62,323 nt of DNA from Candidatus Omnitrophota bacterium. GTDB lineage: Bacteria; Omnitrophota; Gorgyraeia; Zapsychrales; Zapsychraceae. The stretch lies in contig JACRHP010000052.1 in NCBI GenBank assembly GCA_016212005.1, positions 1 through 62,323 of the forward strand, given 5' to 3'. Of the stretch, positions 46,923 through 60,524 are shown piece after piece (the stretch's first letter is position 1; every line of letters starts with the position of its first letter). A model generated the notes under the pieces. That model did not search any database. It saw nothing but the letters and a program-made list of their open reading frames with translations, and was not told the DNA's origin. Made by a program: the position numbers and the translations under genes.

Positions 46923-46932
46923 TACCGTCCCT

Positions 46933-48138
46933 TCAGGAATTACGTTTACCCAGAAATTTCATCATCAGGGCTTCCCCGCTTGCGAATTTAAGCCCCTTTT
47001 CCCGGGCGGCGGTCTCCGTAAACTGCCCGGCGCCATCGGGGACAACGCCTTTGCCGTACATCACAAAACAAACCGGGTCCGAAGAGTGCGTGCGCAATTC
47101 CACCGGCGTGGGATGGTCCGGCAGGAGTAAAACCCGCACGTCGTCACGCTTGTCGAAATAATTTAAAATCGTCCCCACGACATGCTGGTCGATCTTCTCG
47201 ATGCAATCGACCTTGGCCTGCGCGTCGCCGTTGTGGCCGGCCTCATCGGTCGCTTCAATATGGATATAGACCAAATCATGTTTTTTCAAAGCGGCCAGGG
47301 CGTATTCGGCCTTGCCCGAATAATTCGTATCATAATACCCGGTTATGCCGGGGACGTCAATAATTTCCAGCCCGGCGAGACGCCCGATCCCGTTGACCAG
47401 ATCAACGGCGGAAATAATCGCGCCGCTTACCCCGAACTTCTGGTCAAAAGAAGGCAAATTGGGCCGCACGCCCTGGCCCCACAACCAGATCATGTTCGCC
47501 TGGTTTTCCTTGAGATCGCCGCGCACCTGATTGACCGGGTGGCTCTCAAAGATTTTCCGGGATTTTTCCATCAGCATCAACAACATCTCGGCCCCGCGGC
47601 CTTTGGGCAGATGCTGTTGAACTTCCTTGTTCAGGATATCATGCGGCGGATAAGTCTTGAGCGCCAGGTAGTCCTGGATTTTATTCGTTTTCATCACCAG
47701 TAAATGGCGATAACTTTTCCCGGGATAAAATTTGATCCCTTCCTGGACGATCTCCTTGTTCAAAGCGTCAATTAAAATGCCCGCTTCTTTCGTGGGGATA
47801 TGCCCGGCGCTGTAGTCAACCATCTTCCCGCTGCCAATTGTAACCAGATTGCAGCGGAAGGCCACCTCATCGTCTTGAAGAATGATATTCTGGTTGGCCG
47901 CCTCCAGCGGGGCCCGCCCGGTGTGACAAATTTTGGGATCATACCCCAGGATCGCCATGTTGCCGATGTCAGAGCCCGGGTTCATCCCGTCAGGAATCGT
48001 TTGCACGAGCCCCACCGTGCCGTGTTGGGCCATAAAATCCATATTCGGCCGCCGGGCCACTTCCAAAGGCGTTTTATTGCCCAATTTCTTGACGGGGTAA
48101 TCCGCCATGCCATCGGGGACGATAACGATGTATTTCAT
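46933..48138 (-). CDS. apgM: Cofactor-independent phosphoglycerate mutase-like protein (proposed homoserine kinase family)
   Basis: DGMAD, PGSD, DEAGH and DHPTP; lies in the thr cluster. Confidence 0.85.
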   Translation of the reverse strand: MKYIVIVPDGMADYPVKKLGNKTPLEVARRPNMDFMAQHGTVGLVQTIPDGMNPGSDIGNMAILGYDPKICHTGRAPLEAANQNIILQDDEVAFRCNLVTIGSGKMVDYSAGHIPTKEAGILIDALNKEIVQEGIKFYPGKSYRHLLVMKTNKIQDYLALKTYPPHDILNKEVQQHLPKGRGAEMLLMLMEKSRKIFESHPVNQVRGDLKENQANMIWLWGQGVRPNLPSFDQKFGVSGAIISAVDLVNGIGRLAGLEIIDVPGITGYYDTNYSGKAEYALAALKKHDLVYIHIEATDEAGHNGDAQAKVDCIEKIDQHVVGTILNYFDKRDDVRVLLLPDHPTPVELRTHSSDPVCFVMYGKGVVPDGAGQFTETAAREKGLKFASGEALMMKFLGKRNS

Positions 48139-48782
48139 AATCTCTCGCGAAGGATACGCACCAGAGCCGCCGACATTTCCCTGCGGCTGGCGGCGTATGC
48201 CAATTCTTTTTTATTTTGATCCAGAATATATCCCCGGTACCCCCGCGCGGTCAACTGGTTGGCGACGACCAGATCACAACCGGCATTACGGAAAAGGTCG
48301 CGCGTTTTTACGACCGCCGACCGCCGCGAAATTTTCGGTTCAAGTTTAAACCCTACCAACAATGCTTTCGGATTAAGCCGCTTGACGCTGCGAATGATCT
48401 TCGGGGTGGCCGTCAACTCCAGTTTCAACGTTTTCCGTCCAGAGGGGATCTTCCCCCTCACCGGTCTTTTTAATTGATAGTCCGCGACCGCCGCCGCGTG
48501 AACCACAACAGCCGTGTCTTTACGCAATTCCTTCTTTACCAGTCCTTCCAATTCCGCCAAAAAAGAAAACTTCAATGTCCGGATCCCCTCCGAGGATAGT
48601 GGCCGCTGAACCGGTCCTTCCAGAAGCACAACCCGCGCCCCGGCACGTGCGCAATCGAGAGCAATCTGCTGGCCCAGCGCACCCGTGGATTGGTTGCTTA
48701 AAACACGTACGTCATCGATAGGCACCCAGGTCGGCCCGCAGGTGATGAGAATTTTTTTGTTTTTCAGGGAATGTCCCGCCAC
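48135..48782 (-). CDS. coaB: Stand-alone phosphopantothenate-cysteine ligase domain (CoaB-like)
   Basis: ITCGPT..IDDVR..SNQSTG, HAAAVAD, VGFKLE, VVAN. Confidence 0.8.
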   Translation of the reverse strand: MAGHSLKNKKILITCGPTWVPIDDVRVLSNQSTGALGQQIALDCARAGARVVLLEGPVQRPLSSEGIRTLKFSFLAELEGLVKKELRKDTAVVVHAAAVADYQLKRPVRGKIPSGRKTLKLELTATPKIIRSVKRLNPKALLVGFKLEPKISRRSAVVKTRDLFRNAGCDLVVANQLTARGYRGYILDQNKKELAYAASRREMSAALVRILRERL

Positions 48783-48789
48783 GTCGACC

Positions 48790-49848
48790 TTATAACCCGA
48801 TTTCCTTGAGGATCGCCTTGACGTCCGGCTTTAGTGAAACAGGCGGCTGAACGTTTTTGATAGCGATGTCCGGATCTTTAAGCCCGTGGCCCGTAAGAGT
48901 GCAGACGATGCGGGTGCCTCGATGCTTTTTAAAATACCCGGCCTGATGCAATTTGAGCATACCGGCCACCGAAGCGGCTGAAGCCGGTTCAACGAAAACC
49001 CCGCTTTGTGAAGCCAAACGTTTGTAGGCATCAAGAATTTCGAGGTCGGTGACAGCCTCGATCAACCCCCTGGATTCATCCCGGGCCGCCTCGGCGCTTT
49101 TCCAGCTGGCCGGGTTACCGATCTTAATGGCGGTCGCGATCGTCTGCGGATGTTCGACGATTTTTTTCAAGACAATAGGTGCCGCGCCCGCGGCCTGGAA
49201 CCCGAGCATCTTCGGCAACTGTTTTGACTTCCCGGCTTTTTTATATTCTCCGTAACCTTTCCAATACGCGGTGATATTCCCGGCGTTGCCGACGGGGATC
49301 GAGTGAAACTCCGGCGCATCGCCGAGCGCGTCACAGATCTCGAAAGCCGCCGACTTCTGCCCTTCGATGCGGAAGGGATTGATCGAATTGACCAGTTCAA
49401 CGGGATATTTTTCGGTGATCTCACGGACAAGCGTCAACGCCTCGTCAAAATTCCCCTTGATAGCGACCACCTTGGCCCGGTGGATCATCGCCTGGGCGAG
49501 CTTGCCCAACGCGATATTGCCTTCGGGGATCAGGACCGCGCAACGCATGCCGCAGCGCGCCGCATAGGCCGCCGCCGAAGCCGAGGTATTTCCCGTTGAG
49601 GCGCACATGACGATCGTGCAGCCTTTCTCTTTCGCCTTGGAGATGGCCATCGTCATGCCCCGATCCTTGAATGAACCCGTCGGGTTAAGTCCTTCGTATT
49701 TCAAATAAACTTCCAGACCGGTTTCTGCAGACAGATCGCGGGAAGGAACCAGCGGAGTATTTCCCTCAAGCAACGTAACAACAGGGGTTTTCTTGGTAAC
49801 AGGCAGGAAATCCCGGTACTCTTCAATGACGCCTCTCCAGCTCACCAC
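48790..49848 (-). CDS. thrC: Threonine synthase
   Basis: NPTGSFKDRG, ASTGNTS, PVGNAGN and TGHGLKD. Confidence 0.95.
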   Translation of the reverse strand: MVSWRGVIEEYRDFLPVTKKTPVVTLLEGNTPLVPSRDLSAETGLEVYLKYEGLNPTGSFKDRGMTMAISKAKEKGCTIVMCASTGNTSASAAAYAARCGMRCAVLIPEGNIALGKLAQAMIHRAKVVAIKGNFDEALTLVREITEKYPVELVNSINPFRIEGQKSAAFEICDALGDAPEFHSIPVGNAGNITAYWKGYGEYKKAGKSKQLPKMLGFQAAGAAPIVLKKIVEHPQTIATAIKIGNPASWKSAEAARDESRGLIEAVTDLEILDAYKRLASQSGVFVEPASAASVAGMLKLHQAGYFKKHRGTRIVCTLTGHGLKDPDIAIKNVQPPVSLKPDVKAILKEIGL

Positions 49849-51134
49849 AATTTCTCCATGCGGATGGCAACGGGTTTGCTTTTGACGATCGGCAGCTTCC
49901 AGATCTTTTCAAGAGCTAGACGCAAGTTCTTTTCCATCGTATAATCCGTCAGCATGACAACCGGCACCGCCCACGCCGCGGTGTGCGCCGGCTGGGTGAC
50001 GGAATTAAGCCCGATCCCGTAACGGCCCAAAACGCTGGTGATCTTGCCCAGGACCCCGGGTTTGTCGGTCGCCATAAAACGGATATAGAACCGTGTCTTG
50101 ATCTGGTCGATCTTGCGGATACTGAAATTGGGCGCTTCGCTGTAAAGGTTGCAGAGCAAATTCGCGTCCGCGCCGCGGGATGCCAGGTTCAACAAGTCGC
50201 TTACCACACCCGAGGCGGCCGCCATCTGCCCCGCCCCCTCGCCGGAGAGAAGCACGTCCCCCAGTGGATTGGCATTAAGATAAAACGCGTTGTAAATACC
50301 GCTGATCGAAGCCAATGGATGTCCTTTGGAAATGAGCGTAGGATGCACGCGGGCTTCCACAACGTTCTCGTAGCGTTTGGCGATTGCCAGAAGTTTGATG
50401 GTCAAATTCAGGCTCTCGGCATAGGCGATATCGTCATGCGAAATATGCGTGATTCCTTCGGTATAAATGTCGCTGACCTTCACAAACTTTCCAAAGGCCA
50501 AATACGCCAGGATCGCCAGTTTGTGGGTGGAGTCCATCCCGTTGATATCCAGCGTCGGATTGCTTTCCGCGAACCCTTTTTCCTGCGCCAGCTTCAAAGC
50601 CTTGGTAAACGAAAGGTTGTTTTTGGTCATCTCGGTCAGGATAAAATTGCACGTCCCGTTAATGATCCCGTAAATACGGTTGTACGTGTTGCCCACCATA
50701 CCTTCGGTGATGGTCTTGATGATCGGGATCCCGGCACCGACCGATGATTCAAAATATAACTGGCGGTTCTGCTTTTTAGCTAACTGGAACAATTCCTTGC
50801 CGTAATGGGCGATCAGGACTTTATTGGCCGTGACCACGTGCTTGCCGCGGCGCAACGCCGTTGTCACGATCTCCTTGGCCGGATGCAAACCGCCGATAAG
50901 TTCGATAACAACTTCAGTACTTCTATCGTCCAGGACATCGGATATCTTTTTGGTCAGCCGGGTGGCGCCCAATCCGCGGGTGTCTTTTCTGTGGATGCTC
51001 CGGTCGCAGATCGTTCGCGCAACGAATTCAACCCGGTATTTATCATGGATATAATTTTGCCGCTTCTGCAGGAATTTGATAACGCCTGCGCCGACGACAC
51101 CATAACCGATAAGCCCGACATTAATCTTGCGCAT
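49842..51134 (-). CDS. hom: Homoserine dehydrogenase with ACT domain
   Basis: GYGVVG, VTANK, GIINGT and GEGAG; start MRKINV at 51134. Confidence 0.95.
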   Translation of the reverse strand: MRKINVGLIGYGVVGAGVIKFLQKRQNYIHDKYRVEFVARTICDRSIHRKDTRGLGATRLTKKISDVLDDRSTEVVIELIGGLHPAKEIVTTALRRGKHVVTANKVLIAHYGKELFQLAKKQNRQLYFESSVGAGIPIIKTITEGMVGNTYNRIYGIINGTCNFILTEMTKNNLSFTKALKLAQEKGFAESNPTLDINGMDSTHKLAILAYLAFGKFVKVSDIYTEGITHISHDDIAYAESLNLTIKLLAIAKRYENVVEARVHPTLISKGHPLASISGIYNAFYLNANPLGDVLLSGEGAGQMAAASGVVSDLLNLASRGADANLLCNLYSEAPNFSIRKIDQIKTRFYIRFMATDKPGVLGKITSVLGRYGIGLNSVTQPAHTAAWAVPVVMLTDYTMEKNLRLALEKIWKLPIVKSKPVAIRMEKLW

Positions 51135-51556: not shown

Positions 51557-51630
51557 TCGGAGCGGACGGGCTTGAACCGTCGACCTCTTGAACCCCATTC
51601 AAGTGCGCTAGCCAACTGCGCTACGCTCCG
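51557..51630 (-). tRNA. tRNA-Pro(GGG)
   Basis: CGGAGCGTAGCGCAGTTGGCTAGCGCACTTGAATGGGGTTCAAGAGGTCGACGGTTCAAGCCCGTCCGCTCCGA folds as a cloverleaf; CCA not encoded. Confidence 0.95.
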
Positions 51631-51633
51631 TTA

Positions 51634-52728
51634 TTATTTAACTAATTCTATATCAACAGTTTGTGAAATGTTACTATTTTCAGACTTTTGCGATTCTGGC
51701 GAAAGTGTCCAAAAAGTGTCCATTCTCCGACCCAAAACGTCAACCGCATGCTTCTTATGACTTGGTGACAAATGGCTATATCGCAGCGTCATTCGAATAT
51801 CCTTATGCCCTAACAATTCCCGCACCGTATTAATATCTATCCCAGACATGACCAGTTGACTGGCAAAAGTATGCCTTAAGTCGTGGAAATGAAAATCTTT
51901 TATACCAGACTTTTTCAGGGCTGTAAAGAAGGATTTCCGGATATCGTGACATGGTTTACCAAGTGAATTACAGAAAATATATGGGCTTTCGGGGTGCTTT
52001 CGAACCCGGATCAGAGCAGTCTTGACTTGCTCATTTATGTAGACTTCGCGCTTTTCCCCGTTCTTGGTATCAAGCAAAGTAATGATATTGTTCTTAAAAT
52101 CCACATCATGCCATTTAAGGCCGAAGAGTTCGCCTCTACGCATGCCGGTATTGAGCGCCAGGACAACGACCGGTCTCAACCTCTTGTTACAATTGGCCAG
52201 GACCTTGACGATTTCCTCCCTTTCGAGGAAACGCAAACGGCCCGCAGGTTCCTTAAGAAATTTGACGTTTCGGGCCGTGCTCTCATGCAGCTTGTCCCAG
52301 ATTACGGCTTTCGAGAACATTGTTTTCAGAGTGGCCAGCTCACGGTTGACCGTTGCAGGGCCGACCTGCCCGGAGCGTTCGAGCTTAAATTTCTCAATGT
52401 CTTTGATAGCGATCGTGTAGAGGTATTTACCCCCGAAATATCCCTTGAGGGTTTCGAGATTATAAAAATCGGACTTCCAGCTTTTCTTGTTGGCTTTGCA
52501 GTGGATATTCAGAAATTCCGCTGCGAAGTCCTCGAACTTAATCTTTTCCTTCTTGCAAACATCGAGGAATCTGCCCTCGGCAATCTCGACCTTCCGTTTC
52601 GCCAGAACAGCTTCAGCCAATTTCCTGCTGTAACCAATAGTTTCCCGACGACGCTTACCGTTCGGGGAACGATAATCAATCATCCACATCCCGTTTTTCT
52701 TTTGTTTTAAACCCTTTAATTTTTTCAT
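51634..52728 (-). CDS. int: Tyrosine integrase
   Basis: TGMRRGE, TKNG, HDLRHTFAS, LLGH and RYSH. Confidence 0.95.
   Translation of the reverse strand: MKKLKGLKQKKNGMWMIDYRSPNGKRRRETIGYSRKLAEAVLAKRKVEIAEGRFLDVCKKEKIKFEDFAAEFLNIHCKANKKSWKSDFYNLETLKGYFGGKYLYTIAIKDIEKFKLERSGQVGPATVNRELATLKTMFSKAVIWDKLHESTARNVKFLKEPAGRLRFLEREEIVKVLANCNKRLRPVVVLALNTGMRRGELFGLKWHDVDFKNNIITLLDTKNGEKREVYINEQVKTALIRVRKHPESPYIFCNSLGKPCHDIRKSFFTALKKSGIKDFHFHDLRHTFASQLVMSGIDINTVRELLGHKDIRMTLRYSHLSPSHKKHAVDVLGRRMDTFWTLSPESQKSENSNISQTVDIELVK
51705..51722. repeat. Putative integrase arm-type sites (left)
   Basis: GTGTCCAAAAAGTGTCCA, identical to 60337-60354. Confidence 0.7.
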
Positions 52729-52754
52729 AATAACTAGTATAAATATTAATGGAT

Positions 52755-52937
52755 TTAATTATACACCTTGACCGACTTTTCCTCTAGCCATTTTTCAATC
52801 TCTGAGAGTTCAAATCTAACCAGCCGGCCAATCTTATAATGCGGGATCTGTTTTGTGTGAACCCACGCATAAATGGTTCCGGCTTTGATCGCCAAATAAT
52901 CAGATAATTCTTTTATGTCAATACGTCTATTACTCAA
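52755..52937 (-). CDS. Excisionase-like HTH (HTH_17)
   Basis: IKELSDYL..GTIYAWV..IPHYKIGRLVRF. Confidence 0.85.
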   Translation of the reverse strand: MSNRRIDIKELSDYLAIKAGTIYAWVHTKQIPHYKIGRLVRFELSEIEKWLEEKSVKVYN

Positions 52938-53290
52938 TTCGAGTCCTTTTTAAAGACATCATCCACCTGTTTGGAGAGCTCCAGAAGCTCGGCGATTTCT
53001 CCCTTCGTGGCCGGCCAGTCCTGATCGACGTTAACCCGGGCAGCTTCAATCAAAGCCTTGAAATCAATTTTCAATCCATAGGTACTTTCCAGCTGGTCGC
53101 AAAGCAATCTTTGAAACTCTAGAATCTGCGCATACAATCGGATATCGTTTTCAAAGAATTTCTTGAAGACAACCTGGAGACTGTTTCTGTCCTTATTCAT
53201 CAGATCAACAAGGAAGCTGATGGCCTCCTGCGGGTCATTGAATTCCATTTTAGGGCCTTTCTCAAAGATATCAGGAGAAAGTTCTGCCAT
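52934..53290 (-). CDS. Hypothetical protein
   Basis: GGAGGTG RBS; stop overlaps the next start. Confidence 0.65.
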   Translation of the reverse strand: MAELSPDIFEKGPKMEFNDPQEAISFLVDLMNKDRNSLQVVFKKFFENDIRLYAQILEFQRLLCDQLESTYGLKIDFKALIEAARVNVDQDWPATKGEIAELLELSKQVDDVFKKDSN

Positions 53291-53325
53291 ATATCACCTC
53301 CGTTTAAATAGCGGGTTAATCTGCA

Positions 53326-54900
53326 CTATGTATGCCTTCTTATGGTATTACGCAAACTGGAATTCCGGTAAAGCGCTTCTTCAATCACACCCGTTATAGC
53401 AGCGCGATTCCGATAAACATCTTGGGCATCCCACGCCTGGATCACAATAACCGGCTGGTTAGTCACGTACTGGTTGCCGAGGGACCGCCCCCGGTTCAAA
53501 AGGTTGATATTGTCCTCCCCCAATGCGCCAACGGCGCGGCGGGAAAGCACGGCTTCCCCGCTTTGCGCGATAATAGGAACCTCATCCCTGGCCATAAAAC
53601 CGTTGTGCGCCCTAATCATCCCGCCGGCGTGGAATTCCTTAAGACCAAGCAAATTAAAAGGTGATGTTATTCCGAACATCCGGCCAAGCGTCATGGTTAT
53701 CAGCCATTTCCCGGCCACGTCCGCGAGGATCCGCATAATCGACCGGCCGAAATCAGCGAACATTTCTCTCGCGCCTTTTATTTGTTCAGAAAACGGATTG
53801 AAGAAAAAGTCCCCCATTGACTTGGCCATGGCCTGCGCGGCCTGGGCAGAGGTGTCTTTCATGACGTCAGCCATTGTCTTGGTCTGCGTTATGACATCCC
53901 CGATCTGTTCTTTCAATTTTGCATAATCAAGACCGGCGCCACCCGAAAGCCATTTTATTAAACCCCCAAACGTTTTCCTTATCTGTTCGACAGATTTATC
54001 CACTCTATCGGCCAGACCGCCGGGCACTGTTCCAGACATCCCGGCTTCAAGAATCTTCCGTATTTCTCCTTCGATCTGAGCGACCATCTTGTGCTGTTCG
54101 ATCGAATCTGCACGCAAGCTGCCGGAGAATTTATCAAGGGCATCAGAAGCCGCCAGGAAAGCCTCTTGCTGCGCCCCAGGGACCCGGGCAAGGACCTTCA
54201 TAAAACCAGACAAGTGAACGGATGCGGTGATTAACCCATCGACCAAGCCCCCCATCATCTTATTAAAACCCAGTTGTACCATTTTGATGCCAATTTCGAT
54301 CGCGTTCAGAATCGGGATGACTACTTTTTTGACCTTATCCCAGTGGACAATCATAAGAACGATACCGCCTACAAGCAGCATGATGCTACCCACAATCCCA
54401 ATGATGATCCACTGGGCCGGGGTTAATGCCAAAACGAACGCGACGATCGCTGCCCTGGCTCTAAGTAAATTTACAACCAATTTCCCGATGACCGCTACCG
54501 CCGTAAGAGCAATACCAACCCAAAGCCCGATCTGGACGATATTTGTTTGCACCACGGGCCCGAGGCTATTCCATGCCTGGTAGAGCCTCCCAATGGCATT
54601 CGTGAGCGTTTGGACGGTAGGGATCATGGCTGTGGCCACGCTCAATTGAAAGGCTGCTGTAACCGTTTTGACCTTTTCCAACTCATCACTGACCGCCCGG
54701 CTATACCGGGCCGCGCCATGAAAGGCTAACGCCATAGGACCAGTGATCGCGGCGCCCAACATCAAGGCGGCGTTACTGATGTCATTTATCTGCCTCGCCA
54801 TGTAGCGGGAATCGGATATAAACTTTTTGGCCATGGTGTTGAAATTCTTCGTTACTTCGTCTTTCAAACGGAAAATAATTTCCAGGACCCTATTTGTCAT
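53326..54900 (-). CDS. Short tail tape-measure-like protein
   Basis: Helical Ala/Gly-rich body, central hydrophobic segment ending HWDKVK, C-terminal FHAGG..DEVP..QSGEAV. Confidence 0.75.
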   Translation of the reverse strand: MTNRVLEIIFRLKDEVTKNFNTMAKKFISDSRYMARQINDISNAALMLGAAITGPMALAFHGAARYSRAVSDELEKVKTVTAAFQLSVATAMIPTVQTLTNAIGRLYQAWNSLGPVVQTNIVQIGLWVGIALTAVAVIGKLVVNLLRARAAIVAFVLALTPAQWIIIGIVGSIMLLVGGIVLMIVHWDKVKKVVIPILNAIEIGIKMVQLGFNKMMGGLVDGLITASVHLSGFMKVLARVPGAQQEAFLAASDALDKFSGSLRADSIEQHKMVAQIEGEIRKILEAGMSGTVPGGLADRVDKSVEQIRKTFGGLIKWLSGGAGLDYAKLKEQIGDVITQTKTMADVMKDTSAQAAQAMAKSMGDFFFNPFSEQIKGAREMFADFGRSIMRILADVAGKWLITMTLGRMFGITSPFNLLGLKEFHAGGMIRAHNGFMARDEVPIIAQSGEAVLSRRAVGALGEDNINLLNRGRSLGNQYVTNQPVIVIQAWDAQDVYRNRAAITGVIEEALYRNSSLRNTIRRHT

Positions 54901-54903
54901 TGT

Positions 54904-55371
54904 TCACTCTCTTTCCGGCAGATCAATCTGCCCGTAACGCTTTACTGCTTCTTTGAAAAATACGATCGCTTTATGTTCACAATCCAAGGTCCTCTCTCGA
55001 ATAACCCGAGCGAGTTCCTCAACATCCGCCTTCTTAATAAGCGCTGGCAAGTCGACGTATAAAAATTGCCTTAATGATACAGCTTCCGATTCAGCAATTT
55101 CACACCGCAGGATATCCACAATATTTCTCGGCAGATCCAATACGTTCCTTTCCAGTAACCAACTGTTAATGTCTCTAAGGGGATAAACATACTGCTTTGT
55201 CCCGATCTTCTCACGCGGCAACCCTGACCTGATCCAGTACTCGATTGTCTTGAAACTCTTTCCGTAAAATTCTGCCACTTCCGAAATAGATTCCAGAGCA
55301 TAGCCAAGATTACCCTCGTCGATATATTTTAATGCTTGTTTGTCATTCTCAGTCGTCATATTGTAACTCAT
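54904..55371 (-). CDS. Nu1-like terminase small subunit / wHTH DNA-packaging protein
   Basis: EVAEFYGKSFKTIEYWIRSGLP..YVYPLRDINSWLLER resembles the lambda gpNu1 N-terminus; start 55371 after a GGAG RBS. Confidence 0.65.
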   Translation of the reverse strand: MSYNMTTENDKQALKYIDEGNLGYALESISEVAEFYGKSFKTIEYWIRSGLPREKIGTKQYVYPLRDINSWLLERNVLDLPRNIVDILRCEIAESEAVSLRQFLYVDLPALIKKADVEELARVIRERTLDCEHKAIVFFKEAVKRYGQIDLPERE

Positions 55372-55414
55372 TGCATCTCCTTCCCTTATAGAAAAAAATA
55401 TTTCCTCGACGCTG

Positions 55415-55465
55415 GCCGCGCGCCCCGCGCGCGACCCGCAATGGGCACCGGCAATAGAAGGACCC
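55415..55465 (-). other. cosQ/cosN-like packaging site
   Basis: Minus strand GGGTCCT-N17-TTGCG-GGTCGCGCGCGG, just upstream of the Nu1-like gene. Confidence 0.5.
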
Positions 55466-55700
55466 AAATAATTCCCGGGCATCTTTGATACGGCGCACAT
55501 CAACCAGGCTGGCAGCCTCTCCACATAACTACCGGTCCCGAGTGTTACACATTGCCCTTTTAAATCGTGTGCGGAGAAGGGAGAAGGATGGGCTCCCTCT
55601 GTCATGCACTCATCGCACCGTTTTCATAACAAAGCCTCGAGACAGAGAGGAAGTATAGCAAGGATCTATCCCAAAGCTCCTCCGCATATTGTTCACCGGC

Positions 55701-56366
55701 CTACACACTTTCCTTGAGAGGTACTTCCATTTTCCTGCGGCATTTATCCAGGACACGTGGAACCTCTTCATCGACTCTAAGCGCACTGGCCCAAGTAGCA
55801 TCACTCTGAATCTCCGTAATCTTTTCGTAATAAGTCGGGTACTTCACGGATGCCCTTAGCTTCTCTTCCTCTTCCTTCATCAAAGGATCGGTGTCTGGGT
55901 CGGATTCAAAAATAGTCCCGCGTCTTAGACGCTCTTCAGCCTTAACTCTTCCAAAAAGCTGTTCAGCTACGATCAAAAGCCTGGCTTTTGCCTTCGCTAA
56001 TTCTCCGACCAGCTTGTTACGTTCCGGCAATAGAGCGTTTTGTTTTTTACCGGCAACATCATTTGCATTCTGGGCAATGGCTTCGTAAGTCTCGCGTAAT
56101 CTCTCTTCCAGCTTAACGATGCCTTCCGCGACCGCTTCCGAATCAAGACGGACATTTTCCACCCGTCGATCAGCTTCCCTGACCTGGTCATCGGAAATAG
56201 GCTCACCGCATAATTTTCTTTGCCGTAACTCCTTGGCTTGGGCTCGCAACAAGTCTTGCTGTTTCGCATATTCGCTCCGCTCTTGCTCCAAGGCCACGAT
56301 CTGCTCGGCAATTTCCTCCGGGTTATTACTTTTACTGTTGAGAATCTTTAAAAAATTGAATTTCAT
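55701..56366 (-). CDS. Coiled-coil hypothetical protein
   Basis: 221 aa, E/K/R-rich heptads, with an RBS. Confidence 0.7.
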   Translation of the reverse strand: MKFNFLKILNSKSNNPEEIAEQIVALEQERSEYAKQQDLLRAQAKELRQRKLCGEPISDDQVREADRRVENVRLDSEAVAEGIVKLEERLRETYEAIAQNANDVAGKKQNALLPERNKLVGELAKAKARLLIVAEQLFGRVKAEERLRRGTIFESDPDTDPLMKEEEEKLRASVKYPTYYEKITEIQSDATWASALRVDEEVPRVLDKCRRKMEVPLKESV

Positions 56367-56403
56367 TTCGACGCCCCTTTCCTATTTTGTTGATGATTTC
56401 TAT

Positions 56404-57315
56404 TTACGGAGCCGCAACGGTTGCGGCCTCCGTTTTTCCCTCACAAATTGCTGAATTGAGATTGCCTGCGTCCTGCTTTTCCCTTATCAATTCGGATTCA
56501 ATTCTTAGGAATGCTGTCCCATTGCTCCCCCGGTACCTCTTCTTCAAAAATTGTTCGATTTTCCACCAAAGTATCTGCGGCATTTCCCGCATCATGGCCT
56601 TTATCATACCGTCCGTGGCAATTTTCCCGAGACGGTCTTCAATAAGGCGGTCCCAATTGACAACCTTCCCATTGCCACCAGCTGGACGCCCCTGGTCCTT
56701 ATTTCTGCGCTCCCACGTGCGTACAGCGGCCCGCCAGTCCTTCATTTTGTTATTGCCTACCCGCCAGCCCTGTGATTGGTAAAAATCAAAAAACGTCTCG
56801 GGATCTATCTGGTTCTTACGGTCAATGCAGAAAGCCTTGATCTCCTCTAATGCAGGCGGTAGGAATATACCCTTTCCCGTCTTTCCACTCCTTTCAGTAC
56901 CGTCATCCTTTTTTACCTTTACCTTACCATTACCTTTACCTGGACCCCTGCTAAGCCCCTTGTCAGGGGCTGGCAAGCCCCTTAATATTCCTTCTTTTTG
57001 AAGGATATTTATAATGGCACGATGAGCGTTGTTTTCCGGATTAAGCTCATCGAGGGATAATATCTTCTGTTGAAAAAGCACAAACTTTTTTATAAACCAT
57101 TTTTCCGTAGAGATAACAACGACGCGATCAGTAAAAATTTTCAAATCAAAGGATTCTTGCCCGCAATGGAATTTTACTAGAGGCCAATTCACATTCCAAA
57201 TACCGGCATGATTGCAAGTATCACAAAGATAAACCCAAAAAAGTTTATAGGGTGGGGGTAATCCGCAGAACCACGGGTCATTCCATTTTTCGGTTGCAGT
57301 GAATCTATTCGTCAT
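56404..57315 (-). CDS. Phage-type replication initiator
   Basis: N-terminal W.DPWF..L....KL...YL; C-terminal FFDFYQSQGW..MKDWRAAVRTWE; low-complexity linker with DNA repeats. Confidence 0.75.
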   Translation of the reverse strand: MTNRFTATEKWNDPWFCGLPPPYKLFWVYLCDTCNHAGIWNVNWPLVKFHCGQESFDLKIFTDRVVVISTEKWFIKKFVLFQQKILSLDELNPENNAHRAIINILQKEGILRGLPAPDKGLSRGPGKGNGKVKVKKDDGTERSGKTGKGIFLPPALEEIKAFCIDRKNQIDPETFFDFYQSQGWRVGNNKMKDWRAAVRTWERRNKDQGRPAGGNGKVVNWDRLIEDRLGKIATDGMIKAMMREMPQILWWKIEQFLKKRYRGSNGTAFLRIESELIREKQDAGNLNSAICEGKTEAATVAAP

Positions 57316-57323
57316 TCCAACAC

Positions 57324-57635
57324 CTATCCTCCGCTATAAATTCCATGTCTCGCGCTGAACTTATCGATAATTCGCAGATATTCCGCTATGATTGGTTTAT
57401 GAAGCGCATCTCCGGCCTTCTTCGTAAGCGGCCGGAAGCAATAAAATTGGTTCCCCGTAGAAGAAAACTTCGTCGGGTAGACTAAACGAAAGCCATCAGG
57501 AGAGTTTAAAGAGGTGAAAATAGCAATACCACCAACGGCAAAATCGCCGTTGATAGTCGCGGAGGCGAAAGCGACAAGACCGTCTTTGGGAGAGATCGGA
57601 ACAATCTGAATTTGAGAAATCGATAGACAATCCAT
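57324..57635 (-). CDS. SpoVG-family nucleic acid-binding protein
   Basis: LVAFAS..I...FAV.GIAI..RLVYP..FRPL. Confidence 0.75.
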   Translation of the reverse strand: MDCLSISQIQIVPISPKDGLVAFASATINGDFAVGGIAIFTSLNSPDGFRLVYPTKFSSTGNQFYCFRPLTKKAGDALHKPIIAEYLRIIDKFSARHGIYSGG

Positions 57636-57779
57636 GTTCTTACTTTTTTAAATAATTCTTAACTCTATTATCCAGAACACCAAAAAGATTGCCATGCTAA
57701 AAATCGGATACGAATTTAACAGAAGGGGGGCTAGTATTTCGAATATTGGGCAGATGTGACCAGATTGGTCAGGAACATC

Positions 57780-58523
57780 CTAACACGAAGAACAGGGCGG
57801 CTTGAATTTTAAATAAGTACCGCGGCCTATTTTCTCTCTATCGACATTGTTTTCTTTGGGATCTGTGCACCGGCCTTCGGTGGCCGCGCGCGTGGCCGCC
57901 AGTATTTTTTTCTCAAGACAACGACATTTCGAAATGATATGTTCAATAGTGGAGGTGGATAGACTGTTGCTTTGCGCAAGTGACTCGTATATTTTCCCAG
58001 GCGATTCTTTTACGTTGTGACGTTTGAGGTAATCTTCATAGATGCGGCGGTTTCGTTTTTCGGCACGTTTGGGCCATGGGTTAACACCACTCCCGAAATC
58101 TTCTTTTAAATAATACCTGATCAGCGGCCAAAAAGCGTCATATTCTGTGCGCGAAACCGCACGCTTAAAAATAATTGTACCTTTCTTATCGGGATCAGGA
58201 AAATAACGTCCATCCACTACTTTAAATTGAACAGGAGATTCCACCGGTAAACGAGGACAAATTTTTCCCCCTTTAATGTTTACATGCCATTCATTACAAA
58301 AATCTATCCATTTTTTAATAAGCTGGGCTCTCTCTGCACCCTCTAGGGATTTTTCAATAGTACTTTTCTTTAAATCCTTAAGGGATTTTTTAAAATCCGG
58401 TCTTTTCTGAATTTTCTTTGTTTCTCTCAAAAACCATTTCTTATAAAAAGAAGTTTTATAAAAAGCACCCAAAACTTCTTTTTCGGACTCATTTTTCCAT
58501 TTTGTTTTTTGGGGAGGACACAT
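57780..58523 (-). CDS. Hypothetical protein with possible C-terminal HTH
   Basis: RNRRIYEDY..YESLAQSNSLSTSTIEHII; start uncertain. Confidence 0.55.
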   Translation of the reverse strand: MCPPQKTKWKNESEKEVLGAFYKTSFYKKWFLRETKKIQKRPDFKKSLKDLKKSTIEKSLEGAERAQLIKKWIDFCNEWHVNIKGGKICPRLPVESPVQFKVVDGRYFPDPDKKGTIIFKRAVSRTEYDAFWPLIRYYLKEDFGSGVNPWPKRAEKRNRRIYEDYLKRHNVKESPGKIYESLAQSNSLSTSTIEHIISKCRCLEKKILAATRAATEGRCTDPKENNVDREKIGRGTYLKFKPPCSSC

Positions 58524-58666
58524 CTTTATTACCTTTTCACTGCAACGGCCGTGGCCCGGCCGTATTGATTTCAATGGCTGCCTTTAGGCCGTAAATGCCC
58601 CCTTAAATGACTTTCAGGTGGCCAGGAAGACACCGGCCAGCGGGAACCGGCGCGCGAAGCTCCTTC

Positions 58667-58885
58667 TTAGACCTTAACGACCTTAAGACTTTCAATCATC
58701 CGGTCCAGATCAGACCGCTTGAACCGCAATGTCCTGGCGGGAAAGCGCGCCGGAACCACGCCATAGCGCTGCCATGACGGCCAGATCCGCTTTGTGTGCC
58801 CTTCACTGATGCCCAGATATTCGGCTGATTGTTTCAAGTTCAGATAGGCTGGCGTTATTACAGCTGGAGCTCGTGTCTTTCCCAT
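58667..58885 (-). CDS. Second Xis/AlpA-like HTH protein
   Basis: YLNLKQSAEYLGIS..LRFKRSDLD. Confidence 0.75.
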   Translation of the reverse strand: MGKTRAPAVITPAYLNLKQSAEYLGISEGHTKRIWPSWQRYGVVPARFPARTLRFKRSDLDRMIESLKVVKV

Positions 58886-58972
58886 TTTCCCTCTCCACAT
58901 TTAAGCTGGTTTTTTCTTGAGTCTTTCCCACGGCATAAGCATGTTACCATAACTTGCCACCCCGGGCTATGG

Positions 58973-59167
58973 TCAGTTGCGCTTGGCTGTCGAACGGGTA
59001 GCCCCGACTAATTCTTGCTTAACGACAACACCGGAAAAATACTTCTTTAAGGTTGCCGAATATTTACCGATAGAGAAATGACATCTTTTATCAAGTAAGA
59101 CCAGATCTCCTGCTTTGGGCTTTCTCATAAGATCAACGGTAATTTGAAATAGCAATTTGTTCATCAT
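58973..59167 (-). CDS. Small hypothetical protein
   Basis: Strong AGGAGGGG RBS. Confidence 0.5.
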   Translation of the reverse strand: MMNKLLFQITVDLMRKPKAGDLVLLDKRCHFSIGKYSATLKKYFSGVVVKQELVGATRSTAKRN

Positions 59168-59384
59168 CCCCTCCTGTTTTGTTGAACATTGTTGCAGTTG
59201 GAGCGCTTGTCTTTTTCATTACAGCTCTTTTAGTTTTGTTGATTCGATTTACCGACAGCATAACAAAACGAGCAAAAGGATCCTTTAAGGCATCCTTGAC
59301 CTCGGGAATTTTAAGCAATTCTCTGACTTCTGATTCTGTGTATCTGCGGCCGTTGGCAGGTTCGGGTAAATGCGATGTTCTCAT
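59133..59384 (-). CDS. Small hypothetical protein
   Basis: GAGGGG RBS before MRTSHLPEP. Confidence 0.5.
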   Translation of the reverse strand: MRTSHLPEPANGRRYTESEVRELLKIPEVKDALKDPFARFVMLSVNRINKTKRAVMKKTSAPTATMFNKTGGDDEQIAISNYR

Positions 59385-59440
59385 AATCCCCTCTTCTTTT
59401 GTTGAACATTGTTTATACGTTTCTGGACAAAAAAATATCG

Positions 59441-59590
59441 CTATACTTTTTTGCCGTATTTCTTGACGAGCCAAATAAAAAATTGGGCAACGCTGTGGAA
59501 CCCGTTGGATTGGGCGGCCTCTTCGACCATTTGTTTTTCTTCGTCTGTCACCCGGATAGCGATAACCTTGTCTTTGAGATCTTTTTTCAT
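59441..59590 (-). CDS. 49-aa ribbon-helix-helix regulator (absent from the ORF track)
   Basis: MKKDLKDKVIAIRVTDEEKQMVEEAAQSNGFHSVAQFFIWLVKKYGKKV. Confidence 0.7.
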   Translation of the reverse strand: MKKDLKDKVIAIRVTDEEKQMVEEAAQSNGFHSVAQFFIWLVKKYGKKV

Positions 59591-59596
59591 GTTAAT

Positions 59597-59866
59597 TCAG
59601 ATATTTCGGTAAGCAGAGGGGCGTTGAGAGATAAGAGTGACTATGACTTTTTTTGGGTTCTTGTCAATGCTATAAATTACGCGATAATCACCCACACGAT
59701 ATCTATATCGTTTCTCTTCGCCCCGAAGCCGTTTTATGTTCGGACCGTAAAAGGGATTTGTCTCCAAGGATTCAAAGCACTTGTTGAGTCTTCCCGAGAG
59801 TTCCAGAGAACAGTTTTTGTAGAATTTCAAGGCATGGGATACCAGGATTACTTCAAACCTATCCAC
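59597..59866 (-). CDS. relE: RelE/ParE family toxin
   Basis: IKRLRG..YRYRVGDYRVIY..RPSAYR. Confidence 0.9.
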   Translation of the reverse strand: MDRFEVILVSHALKFYKNCSLELSGRLNKCFESLETNPFYGPNIKRLRGEEKRYRYRVGDYRVIYSIDKNPKKVIVTLISQRPSAYRNI

Positions 59867-60092
59867 GTTTTACTGTTCTCCAATTGATGCCTTTCCCTTT
59901 GAGATATTCCCTTTCGCCTTCGGCTATTTCTTTCAGCTCTTTGGCTGTCAGAGAATCCTCGAGACGCTCAACCAGCAATTCCCTTACGAAAGAAGAAAGA
60001 GATTTGTAGTTGCTTTCGCATAGCTTTTTTACCTGGTTGTAAAGCGGGGCAGGCATTCTTATGAGTAATTCCTTGTTCATCGTTACAGCCAT
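59859..60092 (-). CDS. RHH antitoxin
   Basis: LLIRMP..SLSSFVRELL, acidic tail; GGAGGTG RBS; overlaps the toxin start. Confidence 0.8.
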   Translation of the reverse strand: MAVTMNKELLIRMPAPLYNQVKKLCESNYKSLSSFVRELLVERLEDSLTAKELKEIAEGEREYLKGKGINWRTVKRG

Positions 60093-60111
60093 ATTTATCA
60101 CCTCCATAGAA

Positions 60112-60140
60112 AATATATCATAGTGATATACTTTTGTCAA
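60112..60140 (-). promoter_or_regulatory. TA promoter with palindromic operator
   Basis: TTGACA-N17-TATATT on the minus strand; TATATCA-tag-TGATATA at 60114-60130. Confidence 0.75.
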
Positions 60141-60336
60141 GGTTAAAAGAACGGTGCACGGCCAGTCTCCAGTGGGCTTTGCCTGCGACCGGGATCGAAC
60201 TCCCCATGACGCGGCCGTGGGCGCCGCGATACGAGGCGCTTGGGACCCGGGCTGCGCGCCAAGATGGCAAAAAAGGTTGGCGGATTCTCAATTATGATAA
60301 AGATGTTTTTTACAGCGACACTGACCCGCGGGGCCG

Positions 60337-60373
60337 GTGTCCAAAAAGTGTCCAAAATTGGACAAAATGGACA
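60337..60373. repeat. Putative integrase arm-type sites (right)
   Basis: GTGTCCAAAAAGTGTCCA followed by inverted TGGACA copies. Confidence 0.7.
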
Positions 60374-60408
60374 AGATTTTTTGCAGTCTTTTGAGTCAGT
60401 TTAAAAAC

Positions 60409-60446
60409 GAAAAAGCACATTTTCTCATCGAGAAATGTGCTTTTTC
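60409..60446. terminator. Bidirectional terminator just inside the element boundary
   Basis: GAAAAAGCACATTT..CTC-ATC-GAG..AAATGTGCTTTTTC. Confidence 0.8.
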
Positions 60447-60483
60447 AATTAAATCAATCAGTTATGAAAAACAGCAGGAATCG

Positions 60484-60524
60484 GAACCCCATTCAAGTGC
60501 GCTAGCCAACTGCGCTACGCTCCG
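60484..60524 (-). repeat. att repeat: 5' 41 nt of tRNA-Pro
   Basis: Identical to 51590-51630. Confidence 0.95.

What the first reader, a model, noticed from the sequence alone, without database searches (positions are those of the whole stretch)
51590..60524. Candidate new phage-satellite type: small terminase, cos-like site and a lone tape-measure protein
Seen: an intact ~8.9 kb att-bounded element with all genes on one strand (int, two Xis/AlpA-like HTHs, Rep, SpoVG, RHH, RelBE, Nu1-like TerS, 524-aa TMP-like protein). No recognisable capsid, portal, large terminase or tail-tube gene is present, and no gene looks broken. Known: PICIs redirect packaging with their own TerS, and tape-measure proteins set tail length and assist DNA injection. 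Inference: the element hijacks a cos-type helper for packaging and substitutes its own short TMP, giving satellite-specific tails or poisoning helper tail assembly. The unknown 118-aa and 221-aa proteins nearby are candidate chaperone or interference factors.
Basis: partly seen in the sequence, partly recalled or inferred. Interest (0 to 1): 0.85.

Follow-up and report, generated by a model that had tools for sequence, protein, structure and literature searches.

The report
Omnitrophota phage satellite carrying tape measure
This is an intact 8.9-kb mobile island in an uncultivated Omnitrophota bacterium that keeps just two phage particle genes, a small terminase and a full-length tail tape measure, and it most likely parasitises lambda-like phages in a way recently shown for Vibrio satellites.

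Summary
The island is real. It is bounded by an exact 41-nt repeat at tRNA-Pro. Two same-genus genomes have the empty site.

[quoted passage not shown] In 171 of 184 related loci, that TMP sits in a full head-tail module. Here it stands alone.

The gene beside it has a Nu1-type DNA-binding domain. It is homologous to the gene just upstream of the GpA-type large terminase in those phages.

Three other small elements share four families with the island: small terminase (TerS), p221, TMP and p118. A C-terminal segment of the 303-aa protein also matches one of them. A fourth, truncated element adds a further case. A second type of island in another genome pairs a different TerS with a TMP. p221 also marks mini-elements that have only a recombinase and a primase.

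The best reading is a phage satellite that redirects packaging and supplies its own TMP.

- The TMP is not short compared with the helper family.
- No cos site could be shown.
- "Rep" is weakly supported.

Satellite-encoded TMPs were published in 2025-26 (PLE, EPIP). This is therefore a new variant of a known kind, not a new kind.

The parts
51557..51630 (-). tRNA-Pro(GGG). Its first 41 nt (51590-51630) are the left copy of the att repeat.
   Evidence: ARAGORN; repeat D1.
51634..52728 (-). Tyrosine integrase, 364 aa. It ends 3 nt before the tRNA.
   Evidence: PF00589 5.4e-37; phrog_1 4.2e-78. 88% aa identity to the L116 copy; dN/dS 0.09.
51705..51722 (.). An 18-nt exact repeat, itself a tandem GTGTCCA motif. 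The second copy is at 60337-60354. Candidate integrase arm-type sites flanking the core in attP.
   Evidence: Repeat D14. The function is inferred.
52755..52937 (-). Xis/AlpA-like HTH protein, 60 aa.
   Evidence: HTH_17 1.6e-14; Phage_AlpA 0.003, below its cut-off; phrog_66 1.5e-9.
52934..53290 (-). p118, an all-helical protein of unknown family. Its relatives lie immediately downstream of the TMP in the related small elements.
   Evidence: Homologues next to the TMP in L116, L034, L208 and L033. Found in none of the phage-context loci. AF2 model poor, pLDDT 63. dN/dS 0.29.
53326..54900 (-). Tail tape measure protein orthologue, 524 aa, full length.
   Evidence: Seven PHROG TMP families. 147 homologues. 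Occupies the gpH position in 171 of 184 loci. Agrees at 37 of 40 columns that are at least 90% conserved; hydrophobic segments at about 119-190. dN/dS 0.18.
54904..55371 (-). Nu1-type small-terminase homologue, 155 aa. The upstream extension of the ORF to 55605 is probably not coding.
   Evidence: Profile against the PDB: the six best hits are five Nu1-type TerS DNA-binding domains and RppC, 5.9e-8 to 3.1e-4. AF2 pLDDT 82.8: winged HTH plus two long helices. Homologous to the gene just upstream of GpA TerL in phage loci, 2.9e-10 and 9.7e-10. Homologous to L034_16 and L208_11; L034_16 and the related L224_12 are phrog_57 TerS at about 1e-20.
55411..55439 (.). GC-rich inverted repeat in the 330-nt gap upstream of the TerS gene. 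Candidate terminator or packaging site; unresolved.
   Evidence: Inverted repeats I2-I4. Not found in the other loci.
55701..56366 (-). p221, a coiled-coil protein and the hallmark of a wider family of small integrative elements. Candidate assembly-redirecting factor.
   Evidence: Homologues in 20 of 401 phylum genomes, in elements with a recombinase and a primase or a TerS/TMP. No Pfam or PDB family.
56404..57315 (-). 303-aa protein, a possible replication or replisome-organiser protein. Weakly supported.
   Evidence: phrog_15768, function unknown, 2.7e-24. Atlas nearest named clusters DnaD / Phg_2220_C at 0.91, a lead only. Only the C-terminal 90 aa match L208_6.
57324..57635 (-). SpoVG-like protein, 103 aa.
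   Evidence: PF04026, 26.1 bits, below the 29.6-bit cut-off. A relative lies beside p221 in L211.
57780..58574 (-). 264-aa protein of unknown function.
   Evidence: No family in Pfam, PHROGs or NCBIfam; only a marginal PADLOC match at E 0.0085 with no passing stretch.
58667..58900 (-). Second HTH_17-like protein, 77 aa.
   Evidence: HTH_17, 24.9 bits, below its cut-off. Weak relative L208_7.
59441..60140 (-). Ribbon-helix-helix protein (49 aa), ParE/RelE-family toxin (89 aa) and RelB-like antitoxin (93 aa).
   Evidence: PF05016, 34.2 bits, above its cut-off; NikA-like/TacA1, DUF6290/Arc; NF046040 3.5e-5, below its cut-off.
60484..60524 (.). Right copy of the att repeat, a displaced 5' tRNA fragment.
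   Evidence: Repeat D1. Empty attB in G002 and G003.

Best explanation
The 8.9-kb island is a phage satellite of lambda-like siphoviruses that are common as prophages in Omnitrophota.

Shown:
- It is a precise, recently mobile insertion with its own tyrosine integrase and an Xis-like gene.
- It carries homologues of exactly two genes of that phage family: the Nu1-type small terminase and the tape measure protein.
- It carries none of the other head, tail or large-terminase genes.
- The TMP is full length and under purifying selection.
- The set TerS + p221 + TMP + p118 recurs in other small elements that use different recombinases.

Inferred:
- After induction or infection by a helper, the island excises and replicates.
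- Its TerS, or an Rpp-like complex with the helper's TerS, directs the helper's GpA-type large terminase to island DNA.
- Its TMP, possibly helped by p118, is built into helper tails in place of the helper's TMP. This would give chimeric tails of normal length, as shown experimentally for Vibrio PLEs.
- Because the length is unchanged, the likely benefit lies in DNA entry or in escaping factors that target the helper's TMP, not in tail length.
- p221 is a candidate capsid or assembly redirector.
For: 1. Mobility.
- Exact 41-nt att repeat at tRNA-Pro.
- In same-genus genomes G002 and G003 the tRNA runs directly into the right flank, with the two alignments overlapping at the att core.
- A related strain (L116, about 81% nt identity) has the same island at the same tRNA.

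2. TMP identity.
- PHROG TMP families and 147 homologues.
- In 171 of 184 loci with a TMP match, at least 3 of 7 tail-module families flank it, in the order tail protein, F5, F6, TMP, DUF2460 protein, gpL, NlpC/P60, gpJ-like.
- The window protein agrees at 37 of 40 strongly conserved columns.
- dN/dS is 0.18 against L116.

3. TerS.
- The six best PDB profile hits are five Nu1-type TerS domains and RppC.
- It is homologous (2.9e-10, 9.7e-10) to the 204-aa gene immediately upstream of GpA TerL (PF05876, 8.3e-82) in phage loci L009 and L004.

4. Absence of the rest.
- No match to the 18 other phage-module HMMs in the island.
- No other module gene in the 1.81-Mb assembly by tblastn.

5. Recurrence.
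- L033, L034 and L208 share TerS, p221, TMP and p118 with the island. L208_6 also matches the C-terminal 90 aa of the 303-aa protein.
- These elements lack MCP, portal, TerL, major tail, gpL and gpJ.
- L224 has TerS, p221, F7 and a TMP cut by the contig end.
- L016 is a 7.7-kb island bounded by a 17-nt repeat at tRNA-Tyr, with an integrase, a different TerS (phrog_309, 3.4e-13) and a TMP.
- p118 and p221 were found only in these elements, not in phage-context loci.

6. Independent captures. On the TMP tree the lone-TMP elements fall in at least three separate places, each beside phage TMPs.

7. Possible helpers. Same-genus genome G002 holds short contigs with a TMP C-terminus plus F2 and F1, and an MCP fragment of this phage family.

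8. Precedent. PLE-encoded TMP is incorporated into chimeric tails (PMC12987554, passages read).
Against: - No helper prophage is present in this assembly, which is 86% complete.
- There is no evidence of excision, circular form or packaging. Only assembled contigs of public runs were available. They show no attP or attB joint among the rows shown, and island depth (38.8) is not above the flanks (42-49).
- No cos or pac site was identified.
- Beyond the winged HTH, the TerS similarity is modest. The hhalign match covers 53-63 columns, and that fold is shared with excisionases.
- The island lacks a recognisable tail assembly chaperone, which the PLEs and elements L034 and L208 carry alongside their TMP.
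- The replication function is not established.
- No p221 relative was found in the viral contig collection.
Confidence: 0.6

Rival explanations
1. The island is a decayed prophage remnant. Two internal deletions removed everything in the structural region except the TMP and TerS, and these two genes are inert leftovers.
For: - The TMP and TerS both derive from one phage family.
- No helper phage is in the genome.
- There is no direct sign of mobility as a particle.
Against: - The TMP's dN/dS is 0.18 and it agrees at 37 of 40 conserved columns.
- The retained set TerS + p221 + TMP + p118 recurs in L033, L034 and L208, which use other recombinases and sites.
- p118 and p221 occur in none of the phage-context loci. 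The island is therefore not a subset of such a phage.
- The att repeats are exact, and relatives have the empty site.
Confidence: 0.1
2. The island is an integrative defence or interference island. The TMP copy, with p118, acts as a dominant-negative decoy that poisons tail assembly of infecting phages of this family. The HTH protein is a regulator or excisionase, and the island is not itself packaged.
For: - The TMP has the same length as the phage TMPs and comes without a chaperone or tail-tip partner.
- The HTH fold is shared with excisionases.
- Satellites and islands are known to interfere with tail assembly (PMC12987554 on Rta; the abstract of PMC11364771 in the listing).
- A toxin-antitoxin pair is present.
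Against: - The profile ranks five TerS domains and RppC far above Xis proteins: 5.9e-8 to 3.1e-4 against 0.28.
- The same TerS family sits next to GpA TerL in the phages.
- A TerS is paired with a TMP in three further elements and in L016, where the TerS is of another type.
- No PADLOC defence family scored better than E 0.002.
Confidence: 0.15
3. The island is a satellite, but the 155-aa protein works like PICI Rpp and not as a true TerS. It binds the helper's TerS and retargets the complex to the island's packaging site.
For: - RppC (6hlk_A, 153 aa) is among the top PDB profile hits, at 3.6e-6.
- The island protein is 155 aa and lacks the roughly 45-aa N-terminal extension of the 204-aa phage TerS.
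Against: - The Nu1-type TerS domains score better than RppC.
- The related elements L034 and L224 carry clear phrog_57 TerS proteins at about 1e-20.
Confidence: 0.15

Closest known systems
PLEs of Vibrio cholerae (helper phage ICP1), as described in PMC12987554 (Nature 2026; passages read)
   Same: A small integrative satellite that encodes its own TMP while taking the tube, tip and capsid from the helper. The published mechanism of chimeric tails containing the satellite TMP is the model proposed here.
   Different: - PLEs also carry a tail assembly chaperone and a baseplate hub, and their TMP is 95 aa shorter than the helper's. This island has only the TMP, of unchanged length, plus the unknown p118.
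- The helper here is a lambda-like siphovirus, not a myovirus.
- This island has a tyrosine integrase at a tRNA and a Nu1-type TerS.
- Sequence homology to PLE proteins was not tested.
PICIs, including Gram-negative cos-type PICIs with Rpp (PDB 6hlk/6hn7, seen; the definition is recalled)
   Same: - Size about 9 kb and a site-specific integrase.
- An AlpA/Xis-like HTH.
- A packaging-redirection gene of the Nu1/Rpp type.
- No capsid or lysis genes.
   Different: It carries a tail gene, the TMP. No primase-replicase was recognised and no known capsid-morphogenesis gene is present. Helper induction is untested.
EPIPs of Mycolicibacterium (PMC12822802, preprint; passages read)
   Same: Satellites that encode a TerS and a TMP. 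The authors link the TMP to altered tails.
   Different: EPIPs also encode head-to-tail adaptor and stopper proteins, a scaffold and a serine integrase. They were isolated as particles. The phylum is unrelated.
The 7.7-kb tRNA-Tyr island of another Omnitrophota genome (locus L016; earlier scan note e1-1324719)
   Same: A tRNA-integrated island with an integrase of the same family (3e-42), whose only virion-related genes are a TerS and a TMP of the same TMP family.
   Different: - The TerS is of another type (phrog_309).
- There is no p118, p221 or 303-aa homologue.
- The TMP is 26% identical and groups with other phage TMPs.
- The att repeat is at the 3' end of its tRNA.

Membership tests
Phage tail tape measure protein (the TMP family of Omnitrophota lambda-like siphoviruses) | Sequence homology over the full length to proteins in the gpH position, between the chaperone-like genes and the gpM/gpL/gpK/gpJ-like genes. 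| tested here: met
   40-42% identity over residues 1-523 to L036 and L037, which have full modules. Module genes identified: PF05100 gpL, PF00877, PF24801 GpJ, portal phrog_21, MCP phrog_1005.
Phage tail tape measure protein (the TMP family of Omnitrophota lambda-like siphoviruses) | Conserved residues and hydrophobic central segments are retained, and the reading frame is intact. | tested here: met
   Agrees at 37 of 40 columns that are at least 90% conserved; hydrophobic windows at about 119-190; no stop codons.
Phage tail tape measure protein (the TMP family of Omnitrophota lambda-like siphoviruses) | Incorporated into a tail and sets its length. | not testable with these tools
   Needs particles.
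Nu1-type small terminase | N-terminal winged-HTH DNA-binding domain of the Nu1 type. | tested here: met
   Profile hits to 6hn7_B, 1j9i_A, 7lw0_A, 7lwr_A and 7lxs_A, from 5.9e-8 to 3.1e-4. Foldseek 7lw0_A: TM 0.73 on the target, but E 0.057.
Nu1-type small terminase | Homology to the gene that sits directly upstream of a GpA-type large terminase. | tested here: met
   Hits at 2.9e-10 and 9.7e-10 to the 204-aa ORFs next to PF05876/PF20454 TerL. hhalign supports only the HTH region, at 96% probability over 53 columns.
Nu1-type small terminase | Binds a cos/cosB site and recruits TerL. | not testable with these tools
   No cos site was identified.
PICI (criteria recalled, not taken from a call) | An integrase with specific att sites, small size, and no capsid, tail or lysis genes. 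| tested here: not met
   The integrase, att sites and 8.9-kb size are met. The island nevertheless carries a tail gene, the TMP.
PICI (criteria recalled, not taken from a call) | A primase-replicase (pri-rep) module. | tested here: not met
   No primase or helicase hit in the island. Related p221 mini-elements do have a 787-aa primase.
PICI (criteria recalled, not taken from a call) | Induced and packaged by a helper phage. | not testable with these tools
   The public runs were available only as contigs.
PLE | Sequence homology to PLE core genes, and ICP1 as helper. | not tested
   No PLE sequences were compared. The resemblance is functional only.
p221-marked small integrative elements of Omnitrophota (a family defined here) | A p221 homologue on a small element that has a recombinase and lacks capsid, portal and TerL genes. 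| tested here: met
   p221 hits in 20 of 401 genomes. All 14 fetched loci have p221; 12 of these also have a recombinase within 10 kb, and the only phage-module matches in them are small F12-, F22- and F7-like ORFs and one truncated TMP. The island's p221 matches L033_10 at 7.6e-14 and L208_16 at 6.2e-13.

The most novel reading that the evidence does not exclude
The island belongs to a phylum-wide, undescribed lineage of satellites marked by the coiled-coil protein p221. The simplest members have only a recombinase, a primase and p221. This lineage has repeatedly captured cassettes from local helper phages: TerS, TMP with the satellite-specific p118, a chaperone, and a protease. In the window's member the hijack is reduced to two points, packaging recognition and the tape measure. 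The TMP is replaced not to change tail length but to control DNA entry, for example by escaping helper-encoded exclusion or a satellite-encoded inhibitor of the helper's TMP.
Probability: 0.3. Interest if true: 0.8.

Novelty: new variant of a known kind. Interest (0 to 1): 0.6.

Why it matters
Satellite-encoded tape measures were shown to work only in 2026, and only in Vibrio PLEs. This island and its relatives indicate that the same strategy arose independently in an uncultivated phylum, and in a much more minimal form: the TMP with no chaperone or hub, next to a TerS.

The TMP has the same length as the helper family's, which points to a role other than setting tail length. Such a role is hard to separate out in PLEs.

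The family also offers a natural series for asking which helper functions a satellite must replace. It runs from mini-elements with only a recombinase, a primase and p221, up to elements that also carry a TerS, TMP, chaperone and protease. p221 and p118 are two protein families of unknown function that become candidates for assembly redirection.

Tried and rejected
- **p118 as a known phage protein.** hhalign of p118, p221, the 303-aa, 264-aa, SpoVG-like, 113-aa and 64-aa proteins against alignments of the phage-module families gave nothing above 9% probability. p118 is therefore not a diverged copy of the 112-aa gene that follows the TMP in the phages.
- **p118 structure.** The AF2 model was poor (pLDDT 63, pTM 0.37). 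I ran no fold search on it.
- **TMP-p118 complex.** The prediction returned 'no answer'. It is not evidence either way.
- **p221 as Psu-like.** The Atlas gave Psu as the nearest named cluster, at 0.90. None of the 13 family members matched Psu in Pfam, and the PDB profile search returned only coiled-coil noise. I dropped this lead.
- **A link from the 303-aa protein to DnaD-like initiators through L208_6.** The two similarities lie in different domains, so the link is rejected.
- **Public sequencing runs.** Five runs were listed, all kept as contigs, and no RNA holder was listed. After laying four of them, the joints shown included no attP or attB junction (32 further joints were not shown). 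Island depth was not raised.
- **p221 and p118 in viral contigs.** Two scans for p221 found no relative. The p118 alignment was too variable to scan with.
- **Defence families.** PADLOC gave only marginal scores, E 0.002 or weaker.
- **Earlier notes.** Nothing was on record for this place or for the TMP sequence.
- **Unclassified locus.** L207 carries an integrase 46% identical to the island's and a distant TMP. I left it unclassified.
- **Irrelevant papers.** The reference-list hit in PMC11364771 and the abstract of 10.64898/2026.09.15.751708 did not bear on the question.

Full report
**1. The observation**

The window has an exact 41-nt direct repeat at 51590-51630 and 60484-60524. The left copy lies inside tRNA-Pro(GGG), 51557-51630, minus strand. 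Read on the tRNA strand, the repeat is nucleotides 1-41 of the tRNA, so the island sits on the 5' side of the gene and the integrase gene ends 3 nt before it.

G+C inside the island is 0.37-0.53, against 0.51-0.57 in windows 46000-50999 of the left flank. All plausible genes are on the minus strand.

Family scans gave the following:
- A tyrosine integrase (PF00589, 5.4e-37).
- A 60-aa HTH_17/Xis-like protein.
- A second, weaker HTH_17 protein of 77 aa.
- A SpoVG-like protein, below the Pfam cut-off.
- A ParE/RelE toxin with ribbon-helix-helix partners.
- For the 524-aa protein, seven PHROG tape-measure families (best 1.6e-8) and no Pfam family.

**2. What the 524-aa protein is**

It has 147 homologues of about 500-600 aa. 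Where a source names them, most are from Omnitrophota.

I fetched 186 loci around relatives:
- 35 from species genomes.
- 80 from viral contigs.
- 67 from metagenomes.
- 4 from relatives of the window's genome.

Some records are the same contig filed in two collections, so these loci are not all independent.

Clustering the flanking ORFs shows one strongly conserved module. Its order and the evidence for each gene:
- GpA-type large terminase: PF05876, 8.3e-82; PF20454, 1.4e-43.
- Portal: phrog_21, 9e-119.
- A protease-related protein.
- Major capsid protein: phrog_1005, 6.5e-53.
- Tail terminator.
- A 380-aa tail protein.
- Two small chaperone-position genes (F5, F6).
- The TMP.
- A 112-aa DUF2460 protein.
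- gpL: PF05100.
- An NlpC/P60 gpK-like protein.
- A 1,200-1,700-aa gpJ-like protein.

Of 184 loci with a TMP match, 171 have at least 3 of the 7 tail families beside it. The rest are mostly short contigs.

The protein is therefore a true orthologue of the TMP of a lambda-like siphovirus group:
- It is 40-42% identical over its full length to TMPs in full modules (L036, L037).
- It agrees at 37 of 40 columns that are at least 90% conserved in the other 29 aligned sequences, and it has the central hydrophobic segments.
- Its length, 524 aa, equals the family norm: median 516 aa over 115 loci. It is not 'short' relative to likely helpers.

**3. The neighbouring 'TerS'**

The ORF is best read from the ATG at 55371, giving 155 aa. 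Homologues start there.

- A profile of this protein and 12 homologues finds five Nu1-type small-terminase DNA-binding domains and the PICI protein RppC as its six best PDB matches, at 5.9e-8 to 3.1e-4. Excisionases score far weaker.
- The AF2 model (pLDDT 82.8) is a winged HTH followed by two long helices.
- Foldseek's best local match is a TerS domain, but no match reaches significance, and the fold is shared with Xis-type proteins.
- The same profile hits, at 2.9e-10 and 9.7e-10, the 204-aa gene that lies directly between a ParB-like gene and the GpA terminase in the genomes of phage loci L009 and L004.
- hhalign supports only the HTH part of that match.

The island therefore carries homologues of two genes of this phage family, TerS and TMP. 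HMMs of the 18 other module families find nothing else in it, while a control phage locus matched 16 of the 18. A tblastn search of the whole 1.81-Mb assembly, which is 86% complete, finds no other module gene.

**4. A real, recently mobile insertion under selection**

- In same-genus genomes G002 and G003, tRNA-Pro runs straight into the sequence that flanks the island's right end. The left-flank and right-flank alignments overlap at the att core.
- A metagenome contig from a related strain (L116, about 81% nt identity over 11.8 kb) has the same island at the same tRNA. Amino-acid identities are TMP 93%, integrase 88%, p118 77% and Xis 57%. That contig ends inside the TerS gene.
- dN/dS is 0.18 for the TMP, 0.29 for p118 and 0.09 for the integrase.
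- The TMP's dS (0.21) is well below that of the integrase (0.77) and the host genes (0.54-0.81). The TMP segment has therefore been exchanged more recently than its surroundings.
- More diverged relatives of the TMP (68%), the TerS-like protein (about 60%) and p118 (58-69%) exist on short contigs.

**5. A recurring class of small elements**

I searched 401 genomes sampled across the phylum.
- 32 have the TMP family.
- 22 of those 32 also have gpL next to it.
- I examined the 10 without gpL:
 - Five carry reduced elements: the window, L016, L033, L034 and L208.
 - Two are full phages with another tail tip: L206 and L209.
 - One is unclear: L207.
 - Two sit on short contigs.

By phmmer, the window shares four families with L033, L034 and L208: TerS, p221, TMP and p118. 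The p118 relative lies immediately downstream of the TMP in each. L208_6 also matches the C-terminal 90 aa of the 303-aa protein. These elements use serine or tyrosine recombinases and lack MCP, portal, TerL, major tail, gpL and gpJ. Some add the chaperone-position genes F5/F6, F7, or a protease-related gene.

In L034 and L224 the TerS is unambiguous: phrog_57, 2.5e-20 and 3.5e-21.

L016 is a separate type. It is a 7.7-kb island bounded by a 17-nt repeat at tRNA-Tyr. It has an integrase of the same family, a different TerS (phrog_309, 3.4e-13) and a TMP.

On a FastTree of 145 TMPs, the lone-TMP elements fall in at least three places. L016 is 59% identical to a phage TMP, and L033 is 66% identical to another. 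This fits repeated capture, or co-evolution with different helpers. The tree is quick and has long branches, so only this coarse statement is made.

p118 and p221 were found only in these elements among the ORFs of the 186 loci.

**6. p221 marks a wider family**

- p221 homologues occur in 20 of 401 genomes, at 26 places.
- I fetched 14 of those places. Thirteen are compact elements with no TMP within 10 kb. Eleven of the 13 have a serine recombinase in view, and most of the 13 also show small HTH genes and a protein of about 766-804 aa next to p221.
- One such 787-aa protein is a DNA primase (phrog_1829, 3e-84). A small protease-related ORF sometimes lies next to p221.
- The fourteenth place, L224, has TerS, p221, F7 and a TMP cut by the contig end.
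- p221 has no Pfam or PDB family. I treat it as a candidate assembly-redirecting factor by position only.

**7. Mechanism and rivals**

The best reading is a satellite of lambda-like phages, at confidence 0.6.
- Integration and excision use the integrase and Xis.
- The Nu1-type protein retargets the helper's GpA terminase.
- The island's own TMP is incorporated into helper tails.

Incorporation of a satellite's own TMP was shown for PLEs. There the satellite TMP replaces ICP1's in chimeric tails, and the satellite's Rta blocks the phage TMP (PMC12987554, passages read). Because the length here is unchanged, I favour a role in DNA entry or in escape from TMP-targeted interference. This is inference.

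Rivals:
- **Prophage remnant (0.1).** Contradicted by selection, by recurrence, and by genes that are specific to these elements.
- **Non-packaged interference island using the TMP as a decoy (0.15).**
- **Rpp-like action of the 155-aa protein within the satellite model (0.15).**

Points against the satellite reading:
- No resident helper was found.
- There is no junction or packaging evidence. Only contigs of public runs were available, and island depth (38.8) is not above the flanks (42-49).
- No cos site was shown.
- The island has no chaperone gene.

One same-genus genome, G002, holds short contigs with TMP/F2/F1 and an MCP fragment of this phage family. The genus is therefore plausibly a host, subject to binning error.

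**8. Novelty**

Three literature searches were run.
- Satellite-encoded TMPs are in print for PLEs, for PLE-like elements and for cf-PICIs (the legend of Extended Data Fig. 10 of PMC12987554, read).
- They are also in print for EPIPs (PMC12822802, passages read).
- The search for Omnitrophota + satellite + phage returned 4 papers. By title, and for one by abstract, none describes such elements. I did not read the other three.

The finding is therefore a new variant of a known kind. It is a minimal TerS + TMP satellite in an uncultivated phylum, and a member of a broader family of p221-marked elements. Other notes of this scan report TMP-bearing satellite candidates in several phyla. Those notes are unchecked leads.

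Noticed in passing
window 51557-51630 and 60484-60524: The att repeat is the 5' 41 nt of tRNA-Pro, through the anticodon loop, not the usual 3' part. The intact tRNA lies 3 nt downstream of the integrase stop codon, so it may depend on read-through or on an island promoter.
   Followed up: partly
window 51705-51722 and 60337-60354: An exact 18-nt repeat, two GTGTCCA units separated by AAAA, lies about 75 nt inside the left att copy and about 130 nt inside the right one. In a circular form the two copies would flank the core like integrase arm-type sites. A short ORF at 60143-60355 begins MDTFWT, like the integrase C-terminus.
   Followed up: no
window 53326-54900 compared with L116: Synonymous divergence of the TMP (0.21) is much lower than that of the adjacent integrase (0.77), the Xis gene (2.5) and the host genes (0.54-0.81). 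The island is mosaic, and the TMP segment was exchanged recently.
   Followed up: partly
L211-L223 (for example L217:5967-12851): Compact elements that carry p221, most of them also showing a serine recombinase, small HTH genes and a protein of about 766-804 aa (one of which is a primase). They recur across Omnitrophota genomes, and some have a roughly 140-aa protease-related ORF next to p221. They look like minimal satellites.
   Followed up: partly
L034:5384-5458: ARAGORN calls a tRNA with anticodon TTA (a suppressor-like 'tRNA-Stop') inside the L034 element.
   Followed up: no
window 59152-59193 and 59372-59413: A 42-nt direct repeat (83% identity), 220 nt apart, lies across the starts of two small overlapping ORFs (64 and 113 aa) of unknown function.
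   Followed up: no
L187:2-1363 and L190:3-1334: In the helper-type phages, a ParB-like gene of about 450 aa sits directly upstream of TerS and TerL.
   Followed up: no
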